From assembly GCF_050320075.1 (NCBI RefSeq), contig NZ_CP190018.1: a DNA stretch of 64,000 nucleotides. One strand, given 5' to 3'. This stretch comes from Escherichia coli (GTDB lineage: Bacteria; Pseudomonadota; Gammaproteobacteria; Enterobacterales; Enterobacteriaceae). A program made the translations under genes and the position numbers. Below are positions 48,603 to 52,896 of the stretch, piece after piece (position 1 is the stretch's first letter; each line of letters opens with the position of its first letter). The notes under the pieces were generated by a model. The model searched no databases. It worked only from the letters and a program-made list of their open reading frames with translations, and had not been told where the DNA came from.

Positions 48603-48689
48603 GCCCGGATGGTGGAATCGGTAGACACAAGGGATTTAAAATCCCTCGGCGTTCGCGCTGTGCGGGTTCAAGTCCCGCTCCGGGTACCA
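48603..48689 (+). tRNA. leuZ: tRNA-Leu (anticodon UAA), with long variable arm
   Basis: 87-nt GCCCGGATGGTGGAATCGGTAGACACAAGGGATTTAAAATCCC...GGTACCA. Confidence 0.95.
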
Positions 48690-48763
48690 TGGGAAAGATA
48701 AGAATAAAATCAAAGCAATAAGCAGTGTCGTGAAACCACCTTCGGGTGGTTTTTTTGTGCCTG
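48634..48763. repeat. Left direct repeat (attL-like): 3' part of leuZ plus its downstream terminator
   Basis: 130 bp identical, apart from one indel, to 52766..52896; covers the anticodon-loop-to-3'-end of tRNA-Leu and the hairpin AAACCACCTTCGGGTGGTTTTTTTGT. Confidence 0.85.
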
Positions 48764-48941
48764 AAATTCACGCCCTGTGCATATCCTGTGCTCACGGGGG
48801 GCAATGAGCTGCAATCTCAAGCCCGGCAATGCCGAATCGAACGTGTCGCCTCCAGCATAGAGAACCAGGCCGCTTTGCCTGTTTTCCGGTACTCTTCCGG
48901 GAAGGGGGGCCAGCTGAGCAAGCTATAATGCTCTGGCCACC

Positions 48942-49673
48942 CTAAGCACAAAGTTGCTTAATTCGTGCAATCACCTCATCTCTGTATTTCTGGTGTCCGC
49001 GCATAGCCCTTGGATGGGCTATCCTGAAACAGATTGTATGACCTGTTTTGAACTCCCATAGCTTCCCCGGAATGACTGAAGAAGTCTCATAGCCGCCTAG
49101 CTCAGTAAGCACCTGTTTTATGATGTAGTCTGTTCTCCGGGCTCCGGATGCAAAGATGGTGAAATCAGGCTCAAGGTGTTTAATTTGTACCGCCAGCAGT
49201 TTCAGCGAGGCTAATATGACTTCCTGCACTTCATTTTGAGGGCGATTGAGAGGGGGCAGTCCGTCGTAATCCCACGCCAGTAGATTGGCATACACGATAG
49301 CCTGAGGAGGAATATTAAGCTCCCGGGCCAGCCGGAAGTGATACTGCGTGAAGCGGCTACGTGATTTGTGGTTCGTGGTGCCATCATTTTGTGCCGGAAG
49401 ATGTTTCCTGTAACGATCTACAGCCTCTTCAACCACCTGCCCGATGGTGACGTCAGGTATAAGTCCCAGAACCCGTGATATCGTATTCTTACCATTCAGC
49501 GTATTCCAGCCAGCGGTTTCACGCCCAACCAGCATGATTTTTACCGGTGAGTGCCAGTATTCTTCAAAGGGCACGGGTAAAAAGACGCCTGAGTATTTAT
49601 CCTCATTCAGGTTAAATGACTGGGCGTCAACTTCCTGTAATATCCGTTTGTATGCGTCTAATAGTCTTTCCAT
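48942..49673 (-). CDS. Hypothetical protein, possible UDG-superfamily (DNA glycosylase-like) fold
   Basis: 243-aa ORF inside the islet; beta-strand plus Gly motif (VKIMLVGRETAGW) near the N-terminus and C-terminal HP motif (FRIAHPRAMRG), similar in position to UDG motifs 1 and 2. Weak, motif-level only. Confidence 0.35.
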   Translation of the reverse strand: MERLLDAYKRILQEVDAQSFNLNEDKYSGVFLPVPFEEYWHSPVKIMLVGRETAGWNTLNGKNTISRVLGLIPDVTIGQVVEEAVDRYRKHLPAQNDGTTNHKSRSRFTQYHFRLARELNIPPQAIVYANLLAWDYDGLPPLNRPQNEVQEVILASLKLLAVQIKHLEPDFTIFASGARRTDYIIKQVLTELGGYETSSVIPGKLWEFKTGHTICFRIAHPRAMRGHQKYRDEVIARIKQLCA

Positions 49674-49723
49674 TCTTCAATCCTGCCCCGTAATAAAAAT
49701 ACCTTCAGATATATATTATTTTC

Positions 49724-50440
49724 ATGATATCAATCAGATACATGAGGATAAATATGCAAAAATCCTTCCGATTCACCAATTCATCCATCAAAGCCCTTCC
49801 GGCAAACACAGATACCCGATCTACAGAGCTTGAGGTATCTGATACCGAAGTCATTGGCCTCAAATGCCTCTCAGGTCGAACGGGCAACAAACGTTTCCTC
49901 CTGCGCTACACATTCCACGGTACCAAAAAAAGTATCAGTATTGGCAGATTCCCTGAAATCGATGTGGGAACAGCCCGTCAGATAGCTCGTCGTCACAAGG
50001 AGGCGATTGCACTGGGAAATGACCCTAAGGCAGAGCGCGATAATTATCGGGCGATGCCAACGCTTAGTGAGTTTTTTCACCAGACCTATGTTCCGTTCAT
50101 CAAGCGCCATAAAAAGTCCTGGGATAAGGATGTTCAGCGTTTCACGCAATACATTGAACCTCGTCTGGGGAAGATACGTTACTGCGACCTTCAGGCCCGG
50201 GAAATCCAGCAGGTGCTTTTTGACATGCTTGAGGGCCGTATTCACGGCCAGCAGTATGCACCGTCTACCTGTAACAGGGCACTGGCTATTCTGAAAACCA
50301 TGGGCCGTTATGCGCTACGACAGGATGTCCTGGAGAAGAATGAAGCCGATAAGATCCCTTTGCTGAAGGAGAATAATCACCGGACGCGCTTTTTTGACGC
50401 TGATGAGATCAGGAGAATCCTTGATGCTGCGTCTCGATAA
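49724..50440 (+). pseudogene. Truncated tyrosine recombinase (P4-type integrase N-terminal arm-binding plus SAM-like region; catalytic domain absent)
   Basis: 238-aa ORF with integrase N-terminal signature (FTNSSIKALP..., GLKCLSGRTGNKRFLLRYTFHGTKKSISIGRFPEIDVGTARQIARRHKEA) but ending before the catalytic R..HxxR..Y domain; adjacent to a tRNA att site. Confidence 0.7.
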
Positions 50441-50655
50441 CCCAATAAAGCTGCCGGAGGGCTGACGCCGGAAGAGTCAGAGAACAGATACCATTTTTAC
50501 TGTAAAACCGTGGCCAGTATTACTTGACCACTACATTCTAAGGCTTGCTTTAATGCTAAGGCTAAATGATTTTGATATAGTAAGTTCATACTTAGCGGGC
50601 AGATGCCCACAGACATAGTACCGAAAATAAATCAGGTATTCTGCGAGATTTCAGT

Positions 50656-51984
50656 ATGAAAATAGCCAATATTAGACTTACGAATTTTAGATGTTTTGAC
50701 GAGTTTAGTGTTGATTTTGACCCAAGACTTACAGTTCTCATTGCTCGTAATGGTAGAGGGAAATCTACTCTGCTTGACGCGGTAGCATTAGCTTTAGGAC
50801 CATTTTTAACTCGTTTGCCAGGGATCAAAGGGCTAAGTTTCAAGAAAACCGATTTCCGGATCGACGAAAATGGAGACCAGCCGTCCTATATGCGAGTAAG
50901 TTGTACTAGTACAACGGGTATAACTTGGGATAGAACTGAGCGAAGAGATCTGACAAAAAAAACGTTAGGTAGCATCCCCCAAGGGGCAGCCCTTAAAGCC
51001 TTGAATGATTACGTCGATACGTTCATTGATTCTCACAATGAGAATAAACACTATACATTGCCAATTTTTGTTTATTACGGAACTGGGCGTGGAGTGTTTG
51101 ATATACCACTCAGAAAACGTGCATTTAACAAGCATTTTTCTCGATTTGAGGCCCTTGACGGTGCTCTTGAAAGCAAAACAAATTTCAAAAGATTTGTGCA
51201 ATATTTTTATTTTCTTGAAGAAAAAGAAAATAGATTACAGAAAGAGCAACGATCATTTGAAGTAGAAATCCCTGAATTAAGGGCAATACGCTTGGCTGTG
51301 GAAAAATTACTGCCAGAGTTTAGCAATATTCGCTCGGCAGTACCTGCTGGAATTATGGTCGATTGGTGTAAGCCTATTGGAAATGGTGAAACAACCATAC
51401 AAAAGCTAAGGATTGAACAACTTAGTGATGGCTATAGAACAACTTTAGCTATGGTTATGGATATTGCAGCAAGAATGGCAGAAGCTAACCCCTATTCGAG
51501 TGATCCTCTAAGTTCTGAGGGGATAATTCTCATTGATGAGGTAGATCTGCATCTGCATCCGGAATGGCAACGTGAGTTTCTCCCTAGATTAATCAACGTT
51601 TTCCCTCATCTTCAGTTCATAGTATCGACGCATTCACCATTTATCATCCAGTCTGTCAAAGAGGGGATGTTGGTCGATCTTGATAAAGATGACATTTCGG
51701 ATAGCCCCTCTTTGAATAAAGAACTCAGCATCGAAGATATTGCTGAGGGTGTAATGGGAATGGAAAAAGTTCAACGAAGTGAATTGTTTAACAAACAAGT
51801 CGCAGTTTCAGATAGATATTATCAGTTACTGAATGAAGGAAGAAGTGAAAGCGACCCAGAGGTAAGGAAGCTCTCCGCTGAGCTTGATAAATTGGAAGAG
51901 TTTTTTGGAGATAACCCAGCTTATGTAGCCTTACTTCGTGCTGAGCGCCGAAAAATAATGGGGACACAAGGAAGTAAACAATGA
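50656..51984 (+). CDS. ABC/AAA-type ATPase (AAA_15/AAA_21-like), candidate Septu PtuA
   Basis: 442 aa; Walker A LIARNGRGKSTLLDAV, Walker B/D-loop IILIDEVDLHLHP, H-loop-like FIVSTHSPFI; AT-rich; stop overlaps start of downstream HNH gene (ATGA). Confidence 0.7.
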   Translation: MKIANIRLTNFRCFDEFSVDFDPRLTVLIARNGRGKSTLLDAVALALGPFLTRLPGIKGLSFKKTDFRIDENGDQPSYMRVSCTSTTGITWDRTERRDLTKKTLGSIPQGAALKALNDYVDTFIDSHNENKHYTLPIFVYYGTGRGVFDIPLRKRAFNKHFSRFEALDGALESKTNFKRFVQYFYFLEEKENRLQKEQRSFEVEIPELRAIRLAVEKLLPEFSNIRSAVPAGIMVDWCKPIGNGETTIQKLRIEQLSDGYRTTLAMVMDIAARMAEANPYSSDPLSSEGIILIDEVDLHLHPEWQREFLPRLINVFPHLQFIVSTHSPFIIQSVKEGMLVDLDKDDISDSPSLNKELSIEDIAEGVMGMEKVQRSELFNKQVAVSDRYYQLLNEGRSESDPEVRKLSAELDKLEEFFGDNPAYVALLRAERRKIMGTQGSKQ

Positions 51985-52592
51985 GACCTGTAAATCGACC
52001 TCCATATAATGGAACTGTTTATGCAGATTATAAATCATTTTTACCTTCGCTATTAACTGCATATGGCGGATATTGTTCTTATTGTGAGCGGCCGGATAAG
52101 GTTGATGTGGAGCATGTTGTCCCAAAAACGCATGCACCACTTTTGATTACTGATTGGAACAATTTTTTACTGGGTTGCCCTCGCTGTAACCGAGATTTTA
52201 AAAAAAGTAAGAATACTCAACGTATAGGCTATGTTTGGCCAGATGTTGAGAATACATTTAATTTATTGACATACCATCCAGATGGTAGAGTAGAGCCTAA
52301 GCAGGGGCTGTCTGCCGGACTAACTGCGCAGGTACAGGCTACTATTGATTTGGTATGTCTTGATGATGGTAACCAAGTACAAAAAACTTTAAATCTTGGT
52401 AGAAGGAGATATTTTGGACTCGCGAATAAGGCCAAGACTCTTTATCTGAGTAATTTATTGAGTATTGATGAGGTCATGGATATGGCTCAGTTAGGATATT
52501 GGTCGATCTGGTATAATGTGTTTCAAGGTGTACCTGCTGTCCTTTCAGCTTTGGAGAATTCCTATCCTAATACCGCTATAAACCGCCCATGA
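51981..52592 (+). CDS. HNH endonuclease, candidate Septu PtuB
   Basis: 203 aa; HNH/zinc-finger motif CSYCERPDKVDVEHVVPK...NNFLLGCPRCNRDFK (C-x2-C ... H ... N ... C-x2-C); translationally coupled to the upstream ATPase. Confidence 0.7.
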   Translation: MRPVNRPPYNGTVYADYKSFLPSLLTAYGGYCSYCERPDKVDVEHVVPKTHAPLLITDWNNFLLGCPRCNRDFKKSKNTQRIGYVWPDVENTFNLLTYHPDGRVEPKQGLSAGLTAQVQATIDLVCLDDGNQVQKTLNLGRRRYFGLANKAKTLYLSNLLSIDEVMDMAQLGYWSIWYNVFQGVPAVLSALENSYPNTAINRP

Positions 52593-52765
52593 CATAGGTG
52601 AAATGAATTGGCTCAGGTGCGTACAAGGGGAAGACTTACCTGTGCAGCTTCTGTGTTCAACGTTATCCATGTCTATCTATTTACTGCCAATTACAGTAAA
52701 GTTGGTGGATAATTACAGCAAAGTGTTGCAATGGGTTGCTATGTAAATCATTGATCCTGCGTAGA

Positions 52766-52896
52766 ATTTAAAATCCCTCGGCGTTCGCGCTGTGCGGGTT
52801 CAAGTACCCGCTCCGGGTACCATGGGAAAGATAAGAATAAAATCAAAGCAATAAGCAGTGTCGTGAAACCACCTTCGGGTGGTTTTTTTGTGCCTG
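52766..52896. repeat. Right direct repeat (attR-like): partial copy of leuZ 3' part plus terminator
   Basis: 131-bp copy of 48634..48763 with a single-nucleotide insertion (CAAGTACCCGCT versus CAAGTCCCGCT); lacks the tRNA 5' half, so it is not a functional tRNA. Confidence 0.85.

What the first reader, a model, noticed from the sequence alone, without database searches (positions are those of the whole stretch)
48634..52896. Integration of a ~4 kb islet at leuZ with unusually long direct repeats
The 3' ~55 nt of tRNA-Leu(UAA) plus ~75 bp of downstream terminator (48634..48763) are duplicated at 52766..52896 with a single-base insertion. Between the copies lie a truncated integrase and the defence-like cassette; the K-12-type neighbours (pgsA-glyW-cysT-leuZ and yecA) flank the repeats. 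The repeat extends well past the tRNA 3' end, longer than typical att cores, suggesting the element brought its own tRNA-proximal flank or arose by recombination between islets.
Basis: seen in the sequence. Interest (0 to 1): 0.6.

Follow-up and report, generated by a model that had tools for sequence, protein, structure and literature searches.

The report
Decayed defence islet in leuZ tRNA
This is the shrunken, no longer self-mobile remnant of a common integrating island in the leuZ tRNA gene of E. coli; its long flanking repeat is the element's own replacement copy of the tRNA 3' half and terminator, a normal feature of this site.

Summary
Window 48634-48763 (130 nt: leuZ from the anticodon loop to its 3' end, plus 74 bp of trailer with the operon terminator) recurs at 52766-52896 with one extra A at 52806.

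Between the copies lie 4,002 bp:
- a UDG-fold gene of unknown function;
- a P4-type integrase pseudogene, truncated at about codon 236 and fused to an 82-bp ISEc31 end;
- a stand-alone Septu (PtuA/PtuB) cassette;
- a conserved right arm.

The leuZ-yecA junction is empty in 3,793 of 5,426 complete E. coli genomes. The UDG-like/integrase module is present in 561 genomes, and this islet in 40.

The long repeat is not peculiar to the islet. Three distantly related integrase lineages (the island family, a P2-like prophage and an ST131 prophage) all cross over at the leuZ anticodon loop. Each carries its own tRNA 3' half, trailer and terminator (124-130 nt).

In relatives with an intact integrase, the left copy carries element-specific differences that spare the tRNA structure and the terminator stem, while the right copy is native. 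So the element brought its own flank.

The perfect identity seen here probably reflects later homogenisation by homologous recombination; that step is inferred.

Verdict: an ordinary new member of a known kind, of low interest.

The parts
48603..48689 (+). leuZ, tRNA-Leu(UAA), intact. It is the last gene of the glyW-cysT-leuZ cluster. By the family model, its 3' 56 nt are supplied by the element.
   Evidence: ARAGORN; Rfam tRNA, 57.7 bits; identical to the empty-site leuZ.
48634..48763 (+). Left copy of the repeat (attL identity block, 130 nt). It runs from the anticodon loop to the tRNA 3' end, then through the trailer and terminator. Here it is 100% identical to the native E. coli sequence.
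48732..48756 (+). Intrinsic terminator of the tRNA operon inside the left copy: a 9-bp stem, a UUCG loop and a U-run.
   Evidence: RNA folds of this copy and of four element-borne variants all keep the hairpin. Across 14 diverged element-borne blocks sampled from relatives, only two substitutions fall in the 18 stem positions, and both leave a G-U pair. The simple terminator scan missed this hairpin.
48764..48941 (.). Element-specific left arm, between the identity block and the UDG-like gene. It is conserved in the island family.
   Evidence: Alignment of attL regions; megablast of 48764-50454 finds 561 genomes.
48942..49673 (-). 243-aa gene with a uracil-DNA-glycosylase-superfamily fold and unknown function. 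It is the conserved first gene of the island family.
   Evidence: No Pfam, NCBIfam or PADLOC hit; phrog_29550, function unknown; AF2 model with pLDDT 89; Foldseek top hit 4zby, a family-4 UDG, E=3e-5, followed by UdgX, SMUG1 and TDG; invariant GRETAGWN and HPR motifs.
49754..50457 (+). P4-type tyrosine integrase pseudogene. It keeps the N-terminal arm-binding and core-binding part only (about 236 of 399 codons), has a premature stop at 50438-50440, and lacks nearly all of the catalytic domain.
   Evidence: 93% nucleotide identity to the intact integrase of strain GD33, extending up to window 50461. Pfam on the intact relative finds Arm-DNA-bind_3 at residues 7-96 and Phage_integrase at 213-377. 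PGAP marks it 'incomplete, missing C-terminus'. Junction alignment.
50455..50536 (+). The last 82 bp of an IS3-family element (ISEc31), including its right terminal repeat (...TGACCACTACA). It is fused to the integrase at a CGG microhomology (50455-50457).
   Evidence: 97-100% matches to ISEc31 ends; compared with a complete copy.
50656..51984 (+). ptuA, the Septu ATPase (442 aa).
   Evidence: PADLOC PtuA, E=2e-190, covering residues 1-432; precomputed Pfam AAA_15, AAA_21 and AAA_23.
51981..52592 (+). ptuB, the Septu HNH nuclease (203 aa). Its start overlaps the ptuA stop by 4 nt.
   Evidence: PADLOC PtuB, E=6e-61, covering residues 1-200; TIGR02646 and weak HNH matches.
52626..52765 (.). Conserved right end of the island family (attP arm), ending in ...GATCCTGCGTAGA next to the core. 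It holds two direct TTACAGYAAAG copies (52691 and 52713) that may be arm-type integrase sites.
   Evidence: 86-88% matches lying directly before attR in other family members; alignment with C325 and HH194M; motif search (the motif's role is not shown).
52766..52896 (+). Right copy of the repeat (attR, 131 nt). This is the displaced native 3' fragment of leuZ with its native trailer and terminator, continuing into the native yecA upstream region. It carries a +1 A at 52806 at the junction of the T loop and the 3' strand of the T stem.

Best explanation
A member of a widespread family of leuZ-specific integrative islands inserted by site-specific recombination. The family encodes a P4-type tyrosine integrase with an N-terminal arm-binding domain. 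The crossover was in the 7-nt anticodon loop of leuZ, with the anticodon-stem halves presumably serving as the inverted core sites.

leuZ is split by this insertion. From my own knowledge it is the only tRNA-Leu(UAA) gene, and it is the last gene of its operon. The element's attP therefore carries a replacement for everything downstream of the crossover: the tRNA 3' half, the 3' trailer and the operon terminator. After integration the left copy (48634-48763) is the element's and the right copy (52766-52896) is the displaced native fragment. The right copy is now free to decay, hence the +1 A.

The island then shrank. An ISEc31 insertion was followed by a deletion at a 3-nt microhomology. This removed the integrase catalytic domain and the interior, leaving both ends, a UDG-fold gene and a Septu (PtuA/PtuB) anti-phage cassette. 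The islet can no longer move itself. It persists as a fixed defence islet, and its distribution points to transfer between E. coli backgrounds by homologous recombination of flanking DNA.

The perfect identity of its left copy to the native sequence is best explained by such recombination tracts ending inside the block and overwriting the element's own diverged trailer.

Shown here: the repeat, the empty sites, the family, the element-type left copies in relatives, the integrase truncation and the Septu identity.
Inferred: the exact crossover position, selection for the terminator, homogenisation of the block, and the present immobility.
For: - Occupancy: the site is empty in 3,793 of 5,426 genomes. 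The family module is in 561 genomes. This islet is in 40, and its Septu cassette is found nowhere else in E. coli at megablast level.
- Integrase: intact relatives encode a 399-aa integrase with Arm-DNA-bind_3 and Phage_integrase domains.
- Which copy is the element's: in all 9 E. coli relatives sampled with an intact integrase, the copy next to the whole leuZ differs from native at 4-7 positions, including a shared 2-nt deletion. Where the right copy was read (HH194M, C325) it is native.
- Constraint on the left copy: changes in its tRNA part are only structure-preserving. One is a paired T-stem change (C30T with G44A). The other is a pair of acceptor-stem changes that fit the Buttiauxella 5' half. 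The terminator stem is conserved while its loop varies.
- Crossover position: element-type variants begin by block position 30, so the crossover lies to the left of that, at the anticodon loop.
- Site-general feature: a P2-like prophage and an ST131 prophage have integrases only 19-27% identical to the island's. Both start their blocks at the same loop and also carry the trailer and terminator.
- The rebuilt leuZ works as an attB: P2-like prophages have integrated into it, giving tandem arrays.
- Truncation.
- Septu identity.
- Spread by recombination: the islet and 7.1 kb of right flank are identical (0-3 differences) in all carriers. The left flank differs at 68 sites in two carriers, with the last difference at 48472, just before cysT and leuZ.
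- Literature: tRNA-gene islands restore the split gene and leave a displaced fragment, and anticodon-centred sites are common (2,083 of 3,919 islands) (PMC4383910). A leuZ-associated island is reported in APEC O78 strain 789 (PMC4313913), and that genome is hit H75. An integrative element at leuZ is reported in O145:H28 (PMC7067040).
Against: - No excision or integration event was observed, and the crossover point is inferred from sequence boundaries only.
- The left copy in this window carries no element-specific difference. For this islet alone, the assignment of which copy came from the element rests on its relatives.
- The homogenisation idea rests on a small, partly non-independent sample: 4 of 6 decayed members against 0 of 9 intact members have a native-like spacer, and C325 and RM12761 are one lineage. 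It also rests on one haplotype breakpoint.
- Conservation of the terminator stem could partly reflect the youth of the copies rather than selection.
- Nothing shows that the Septu cassette or the UDG-like gene is expressed or protective.
Confidence: 0.85

Rival explanations
1. The islet and its long repeat arose by homologous recombination between two elements of a tandem array at leuZ. On this view the left end (UDG-like gene and integrase fragment) and the right end (Septu and right arm) come from different islands, and the repeat length reflects recombination rather than attP design.
For: Tandem arrays are real at this site. Examples are two family islands in GD33, several in Buttiauxella L031, and a P2-like prophage followed by the islet in L018 and L019. 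A hybrid block, with an ST131-phage-type end joined to island DNA, is seen in Ecol_881. The Septu cassette has 40% G+C against about 50% for the left module.
Against: The internal joint is an illegitimate junction between the integrase and an IS end at a 3-nt microhomology, not a block-mediated crossover. Single intact family members already have the same long block at both ends (HH194M), so the repeat length needs no recombination between islets. No donor island carrying this Septu cassette was found in E. coli or in plasmids.
Confidence: 0.1
2. The block is long mainly because homologous recombination and gene conversion with the native site keep extending and refreshing the homology. On this view there is no selection for restoring the trailer and terminator, and the terminator is a passenger.
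For: Mosaic blocks are seen in decayed members. A haplotype breakpoint lies at the tRNA cluster. The homology between element and native sequence ends at slightly different points in different variants: T16R-type copies share GCAA beyond position 130.
Against: Three distantly related integrase lineages each carry the whole hairpin and U-run, and each ends its homology within about 6 bp after it. In 14 diverged element-borne copies sampled from relatives in six genera, substitutions hit the spacer and the loop. Only two hit the 18 stem positions, and both keep G-U pairing.
Confidence: 0.2
3. The islet is still a mobile unit. It is excised and integrated in trans by a family integrase resident elsewhere, and this explains its presence in different backgrounds.
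For: Both att junctions and the conserved arms are intact. Family integrases are common in E. coli and in other genera at 92-100% amino-acid identity.
Against: In the carriers read, 7.1 kb of right flank travels with the islet (0-3 differences) while the left flank differs. This is the signature of homologous recombination, not of site-specific insertion into independent backgrounds. Family integrases normally occupy the same site, and no tandem of islet plus an intact family island was seen among the places returned.
Confidence: 0.1

Closest known systems
leuZ-associated island of APEC O78 strain 789 ('Island 9', 26 kb; PMC4313913) and the integrative element at leuZ of O145:H28 (PMC7067040)
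   Same: Same insertion site and the same left module. Strain 789 matches 48764-50454 at 95.3% (H75) and O145:H28 RM12761 at 95.7% (H99). The attL and attR architecture and the conserved right arm are the same as in the family members examined.
   Different: Full-size family members examined here (for example HH194M, about 23.5 kb) have an intact integrase and cargo such as type I R-M, DUF262 and PD-(D/E)XK nucleases. The window has a 4.0-kb remnant with an integrase pseudogene and a Septu cassette found in no other E. coli context.
Anticodon-loop ('A' sublocation) tRNA-gene islands and prophages catalogued in Islander (PMC4383910)
   Same: There is an intact regenerated tRNA gene at one end and a co-oriented displaced 3' fragment at the other. 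The block starts at the anticodon loop, and tandem arrays occur.
   Different: The block runs 74 bp past the tRNA end through the terminator. This puts it at the long end of the reported range (15-221 bp, mode 20-25 bp, in Klebsiella). The integrase criterion is not met in this copy.
P2-like prophage at leuZ in O157:H7 (strain NE92) and the ST131 prophage at leuZ (JJ2434, EC958)
   Same: Same target, same crossover sublocation, and an own copy of the tRNA 3' half, trailer and terminator (124-125 nt).
   Different: The integrases are unrelated (19-27% identity). In the P2-like prophage the integrase lies at the attR side. The homology ends 5 bp earlier. These are complete or decaying phages, not defence islands.
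Septu type I defence system (PtuA ATPase with PtuB HNH nuclease)
   Same: Full-length matches to the PADLOC PtuA and PtuB profiles, with adjacent overlapping genes.
   Different: There is no retron reverse transcriptase or ncRNA, and the scores are below the NCBIfam cut-offs for the retron-Ec78 PtuA and PtuB equivalogs. It is therefore the stand-alone form. The target (tRNA-Tyr in some Septu and retron-Eco7 systems; PMC13096335 and PMC12673091, abstracts listed) was not tested here.
Phage HP1 attP of Haemophilus (recalled from memory, not checked here)
   Same: A long identity block that restores a tRNA-Leu 3' half and downstream sequence.
   Different: Different host, different integrase and different extent. 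This is offered only as a precedent for blocks longer than 100 bp.

Membership tests
tRNA-gene integrative island (Islander definition) | Intact, regenerated tRNA gene at one end | tested here: met
   leuZ at 48603-48689 is found by ARAGORN and Rfam and is identical to the empty-site gene.
tRNA-gene integrative island (Islander definition) | Displaced tRNA-gene fragment in the same orientation at the other end | tested here: met
   52766-52821 repeats the leuZ 3' 56 nt with a +1 A.
tRNA-gene integrative island (Islander definition) | Island-encoded functional integrase | tested here: not met
   Only about 236 of 399 codons remain. There is a premature stop and the catalytic domain is absent. 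The integrase is intact in relatives.
tRNA-gene integrative island (Islander definition) | Presence/absence polymorphism with a precise empty site | tested here: met
   3,793 of 5,426 genomes have the uninterrupted leuZ-yecA junction. Forty have the islet.
tRNA-gene integrative island (Islander definition) | Excision to a circle and re-integration | not testable with these tools
   This needs PCR or read-level data from carrier strains.
P4-type tyrosine integrases (arm-binding domain PF13356 with PF00589) | N-terminal Arm-DNA-bind_3 domain | tested here: met
   PF13356 is on record for the 228-aa product and is found in the intact relative at residues 7-96.
P4-type tyrosine integrases (arm-binding domain PF13356 with PF00589) | C-terminal catalytic domain with the tyrosine nucleophile | tested here: not met
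   In the relative the domain spans residues 213-377. The window copy ends at about residue 236.
Septu type I | PtuA ATPase, full-length profile match | tested here: met
   PDLC00267, E=2e-190, residues 1-432 of 442.
Septu type I | PtuB HNH nuclease, adjacent and co-oriented | tested here: met
   PDLC00315, E=6e-61, residues 1-200 of 203. There is a 4-nt overlap with ptuA.
Septu type I | No associated retron RT or ncRNA (this separates it from retron Ec78/Eco7) | tested here: met
   There is no RT ORF in the islet and no Rfam family other than tRNA. The NCBIfam retron-type PtuA and PtuB scores are below their cut-offs.
Septu type I | Protection against phage | not testable with these tools
   This needs plaque assays.
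Uracil-DNA glycosylase superfamily (for the 243-aa gene) | Alpha/beta UDG fold | tested here: met
   AF2 model with pLDDT 89. The top 50 Foldseek PDB hits are all UDG-superfamily enzymes (best 4zby, E=3e-5, TM 0.48-0.57).
Uracil-DNA glycosylase superfamily (for the 243-aa gene) | Catalytic motifs A and B in the canonical places | tested here: inconclusive
   An invariant G50-R-E-T-A-G-W-N57 follows strand 1, and an invariant H220-P-R follows the last strand. These resemble the GExPG and HPS motifs, which I recall from memory. No structural superposition of the pocket was made.
Uracil-DNA glycosylase superfamily (for the 243-aa gene) | Base-excision activity or anti-phage function (Brig-like) | not testable with these tools
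   There is no sequence-level match to any PDB chain or PADLOC model.

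The most novel reading that the evidence does not exclude
The 243-aa UDG-fold protein at 48942-49673 may be an uncharacterised anti-phage DNA glycosylase of the Brig kind. It is the conserved first gene of a leuZ island family found in about 10% of complete E. coli genomes, and it occurs next to restriction and helicase genes in Proteus and Marinobacter. If so, the islet would be a two-system defence module. Separately, the 130-bp blocks may act as portable homology arms that let defence cargo at leuZ be swapped or deleted by RecA without any integrase.
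Probability: 0.3. Interest if true: 0.5.

Novelty: new member of a known kind. Interest (0 to 1): 0.22.

Why it matters
The practical value is for annotation. The second partial leuZ copy marks the right boundary of an island remnant, and the 4-kb insert is a Septu defence islet that has not, as far as I found, been described at this site.

The broader point is modest. At leuZ, three distantly related integrase lineages have converged on the anticodon loop, and each carries a replacement terminator. Diverged copies from six genera preserve the terminator hairpin. This is a clean natural example of mobile elements restoring not only a split tRNA but also its transcription unit.

Blocks of 130 bp are also long enough for RecA recombination. 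This may explain the mosaic blocks, the tandem arrays, and the persistence of defence islets that lack an integrase.

Tried and rejected
- The simple terminator scan did not report the leuZ terminator. This is probably because its greedy stem extension consumes the T-run. The hairpin was shown by folding instead; the z-scores of the 80-nt folds are unremarkable, as expected for a short hairpin in an A-rich trailer.
- PADLOC, NCBIfam, Pfam and a PDB sequence search gave nothing for the 243-aa gene. Only fold comparison placed it.
- A search for the Septu cassette in plasmids found only a 164-bp weak match in a Deinococcus plasmid. In E. coli genomes the cassette occurs only in this islet. No parental full-size island carrying it was found.
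- The exact-protein look-up of PtuA returned only the same truncated islet, alone or behind a P2-like prophage.
- I looked for arm-type integrase sites. TTACAGYAAAG occurs twice in the right arm but not in the left arm, and 4 of 100 shuffles of the whole window reach the same count, so its role stays open.
- I considered a phage satellite (P4-like or PICI) identity for the island family. The gene tables of full-size members show restriction and other defence genes, a second recombinase and a polymerase-like gene, but no capsid-redirecting or packaging genes. This was not pursued further.
- The idea that the inserted A could be an assembly error is rejected, because it is present in all nine other carriers read.

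Full report
**Observation**

ARAGORN and Rfam find tRNA-Gly, tRNA-Cys and tRNA-Leu(UAA) at 48387-48462, 48517-48590 and 48603-48689. The stretch 48634-48763 recurs at 52766-52896 with one additional A at 52806. Two more bases match after a single mismatch. The repeat begins at the 5' edge of the anticodon loop. It covers the last 56 nt of leuZ and 74 bp of trailer, which folds into a 9-bp hairpin with a UUCG loop followed by a U-run (48732-48756). The extra A is present in all nine other carriers I read.

**Content of the insert (48764-52765, 4,002 bp)**

- A 243-aa gene lies on the minus strand at 48942-49673.
- An integrase fragment begins at 49754. It is 93% identical in DNA to the intact 399-aa integrase of strain GD33, up to about window 50461. 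That intact protein has an Arm-DNA-bind_3 domain at residues 7-96 and the catalytic Phage_integrase domain at 213-377.
- The window copy has a stop at 50438-50440. At 50455-50457 it is joined, through a CGG microhomology, to the last 82 bp of ISEc31, which end in that element's terminal repeat at 50536. The catalytic domain is therefore gone, and PGAP also calls the gene a pseudogene.
- 50656-51984 and 51981-52592 match PtuA and PtuB of Septu over their full lengths (E=2e-190 and 6e-61). There is no reverse transcriptase or retron RNA nearby, and the scores are below the NCBIfam cut-offs for the retron-Ec78 forms. This part has about 40% G+C, against about 50% for the left module.
- The last 140 bp or so (52626-52765) are 86-88% identical to the DNA directly before the right repeat in other islands of the family.

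**Population context**

- A query spanning the uninterrupted leuZ-yecA junction is covered in one piece in 3,793 of 5,426 complete E. coli genomes, so about 30% have something inserted (one search agrees, with 7,103 copies of the block in 5,424 genomes).
- The left module (243-aa gene plus integrase) is present in 561 genomes, mostly with an intact integrase.
- The whole islet is present in 40 genomes, and its Septu cassette is found in no other E. coli context at megablast level.
- Full-size relatives are about 23-26 kb and carry type I restriction-modification, DUF262, PD-(D/E)XK and other nuclease genes.
- The literature already records a 'leuZ-associated island' in APEC O78 strain 789 (PMC4313913); that genome is hit H75. 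It also records an integrative element at leuZ in O145:H28 (PMC7067040).
- The same integrase, at 92-100% amino-acid identity, occurs in Franconibacter, Shimwellia, Citrobacter, Buttiauxella and Enterobacter.

**Which copy is whose, and why the repeat is long**

In all nine E. coli relatives sampled with an intact integrase, the copy attached to the complete leuZ differs from the native sequence at 4-7 positions and shares a 2-nt deletion in the trailer. Where the yecA-side copy was read (HH194M, C325) it is native. The left copy is therefore the element's, as the standard model for tRNA-gene islands requires (PMC4383910).

Element-type differences already appear at block position 30, in the T stem. 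The crossover must therefore lie left of that, at the anticodon loop.

The changes tolerated in element-borne copies from six genera are informative:
- In the tRNA part there are only structure-preserving changes. One is a paired T-stem change (C30T with G44A). The other is a pair of acceptor-stem changes that fit the Buttiauxella 5' half.
- In the trailer, substitutions cluster in the A-rich spacer and in the terminator loop.
- The 18 stem positions show only two changes among the 14 diverged copies, and both keep a G-U pair.

Two other occupants of the site behave the same way. These are a P2-like prophage in O157:H7 and a different prophage in ST131, whose integrases are only 19-27% identical to the island's and to each other. 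They begin their blocks at the same loop and also carry the trailer, hairpin and U-run, ending about 5 bp earlier.

So the long repeat is a property of the leuZ site, not of this islet. An element that splits the last tRNA of an operon at the anticodon loop has to supply about 56 nt to rebuild the tRNA, and all three lineages also supply the terminator. Direct repeats of 15-221 bp (mode 20-25 bp) are on record for tRNA-gene islands of Klebsiella (10.1101/2020.11.02.365908). That places 130 bp as long but within the known range.

**Why the left copy here is perfectly native**

Among decayed family members, four of six have a native-like spacer, against none of nine intact ones:
- the window copy has 0 differences;
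- C325 and RM12761, which are one lineage, have only the loop difference;
- Ecol_881 has a hybrid end resembling the ST131 phage block.

In each case the native-type part lies on the leuZ side and the element-type part on the island side. This is what would be expected if homologous recombination tracts enter from the core genome and end inside the block.

In line with this, the islet and 7.1 kb of right flank are identical (0-3 differences) in all carriers. Two carriers (L016, L020) differ from the window at 68 sites in the left flank, with the last difference at 48472, just upstream of cysT and leuZ.

I infer, on a small sample, two things. The islet is passed between backgrounds by homologous recombination of its flanks, and such tracts have overwritten its own diverged trailer.

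**The rebuilt leuZ is a working target**

In two assemblies, P2-like prophages sit between leuZ and the islet. The middle copy of the block consists of the phage arm, then the core, then the islet's block. GD33 carries two family islands in tandem, and Buttiauxella massiliensis carries several.

**Side observation: the 243-aa gene**

The gene has no match in Pfam, NCBIfam, PADLOC or PDB sequences. A confident model (pLDDT 89) matches only uracil-DNA-glycosylase-superfamily structures. The best match is 4zby (E=3e-5), followed by UdgX, SMUG1 and TDG.

Two motifs are invariant in 26 homologues: GRETAGWN after the first strand and HPR after the last. Homologues at 50-55% identity occur across Gammaproteobacteria. 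They lie next to Mrr and type I R-M genes in Proteus, next to a large helicase cluster in Marinobacter, and behind a conserved 109-aa gene in Stutzerimonas and Marinobacter.

UDG-fold enzymes have been shown to defend against phages with modified bases: Brig1 (PMC11078745, whose best structural match was the same 4ZBY) and Brig2 (10.1101/2025.10.29.685425). This makes the gene a candidate defence glycosylase. That is a lead, not a result.

**Verdict**

It is wrong to treat the length as unusual for this site, or the islet as recently mobile. It is a decayed, integrase-less member of a known and widespread leuZ island family that carries a stand-alone Septu system.

Novelty: a new member of a known kind. 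Interest: low.

Noticed in passing
window 48942-49673 (minus strand): A 243-aa protein with a UDG-superfamily fold has no family assignment. It is conserved as the first gene of the leuZ island family (561 of 5,426 E. coli genomes). Homologues lie in defence-like neighbourhoods in Proteus, Marinobacter and Stutzerimonas. It is a candidate Brig-like anti-phage glycosylase.
   Followed up: partly
L018 and L019, 6872-8300 (equivalent to window 48603-48941): Tandem arrays in which a P2-like prophage has integrated into the leuZ rebuilt by the islet, giving three copies of the block. GD33 (L002 and L022) carries two family islands in tandem, and Buttiauxella massiliensis (L031: 334 and 7075) carries several.
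   Followed up: yes
window 40677-48472 compared with L016 and L020: Two carriers of the identical islet and right flank differ from the window at 68 sites in the left flank. The last difference is at 48472, in the glyW-cysT spacer. This is a recombination breakpoint at the tRNA cluster or island boundary. The fliC region lies about 10 kb further left in related genomes.
   Followed up: partly
L029, L047 (E. coli), L034 (Citrobacter koseri), L026/L027 (Buttiauxella): block positions 30 and 44: Some family islands supply a leuZ 3' half with a compensatory T-stem change (C-G to T-A). Their hosts therefore express a chimeric tRNA-Leu(UAA) that differs from the native one.
   Followed up: partly
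L045 (E. coli Ecol_881), end of the left block: A hybrid block whose last bases (GTATCTG) match the ST131-prophage-type block, joined to island-type DNA (AAATTCATG). This suggests a past recombination between the blocks of two different elements.
   Followed up: no
L012 5134-6347 and L020 11935-12632 (equivalent to window about 52560-52600): In two carriers the 3' end of ptuB is disrupted by independent IS insertions, an IS3-family element in one and IS1 in the other. The Septu cassette is therefore itself decaying in part of the lineage.
   Followed up: no
L013 12991-13674 and L022 5735-6418: Full-size leuZ islands encode a 'YecA/YgfB family' protein inside their type I R-M operon. This sits a few kilobases from the chromosomal yecA that flanks the site. 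It may be coincidence or a captured paralogue.
   Followed up: no
L011 31215-33690 (E. coli T16R): Downstream of the family island, the annotation runs into hisF and hisIE fragments and a GT99 glycosyltransferase rather than yecA. This suggests a rearrangement, or an O-antigen-region fragment inside or beside the island.
   Followed up: no
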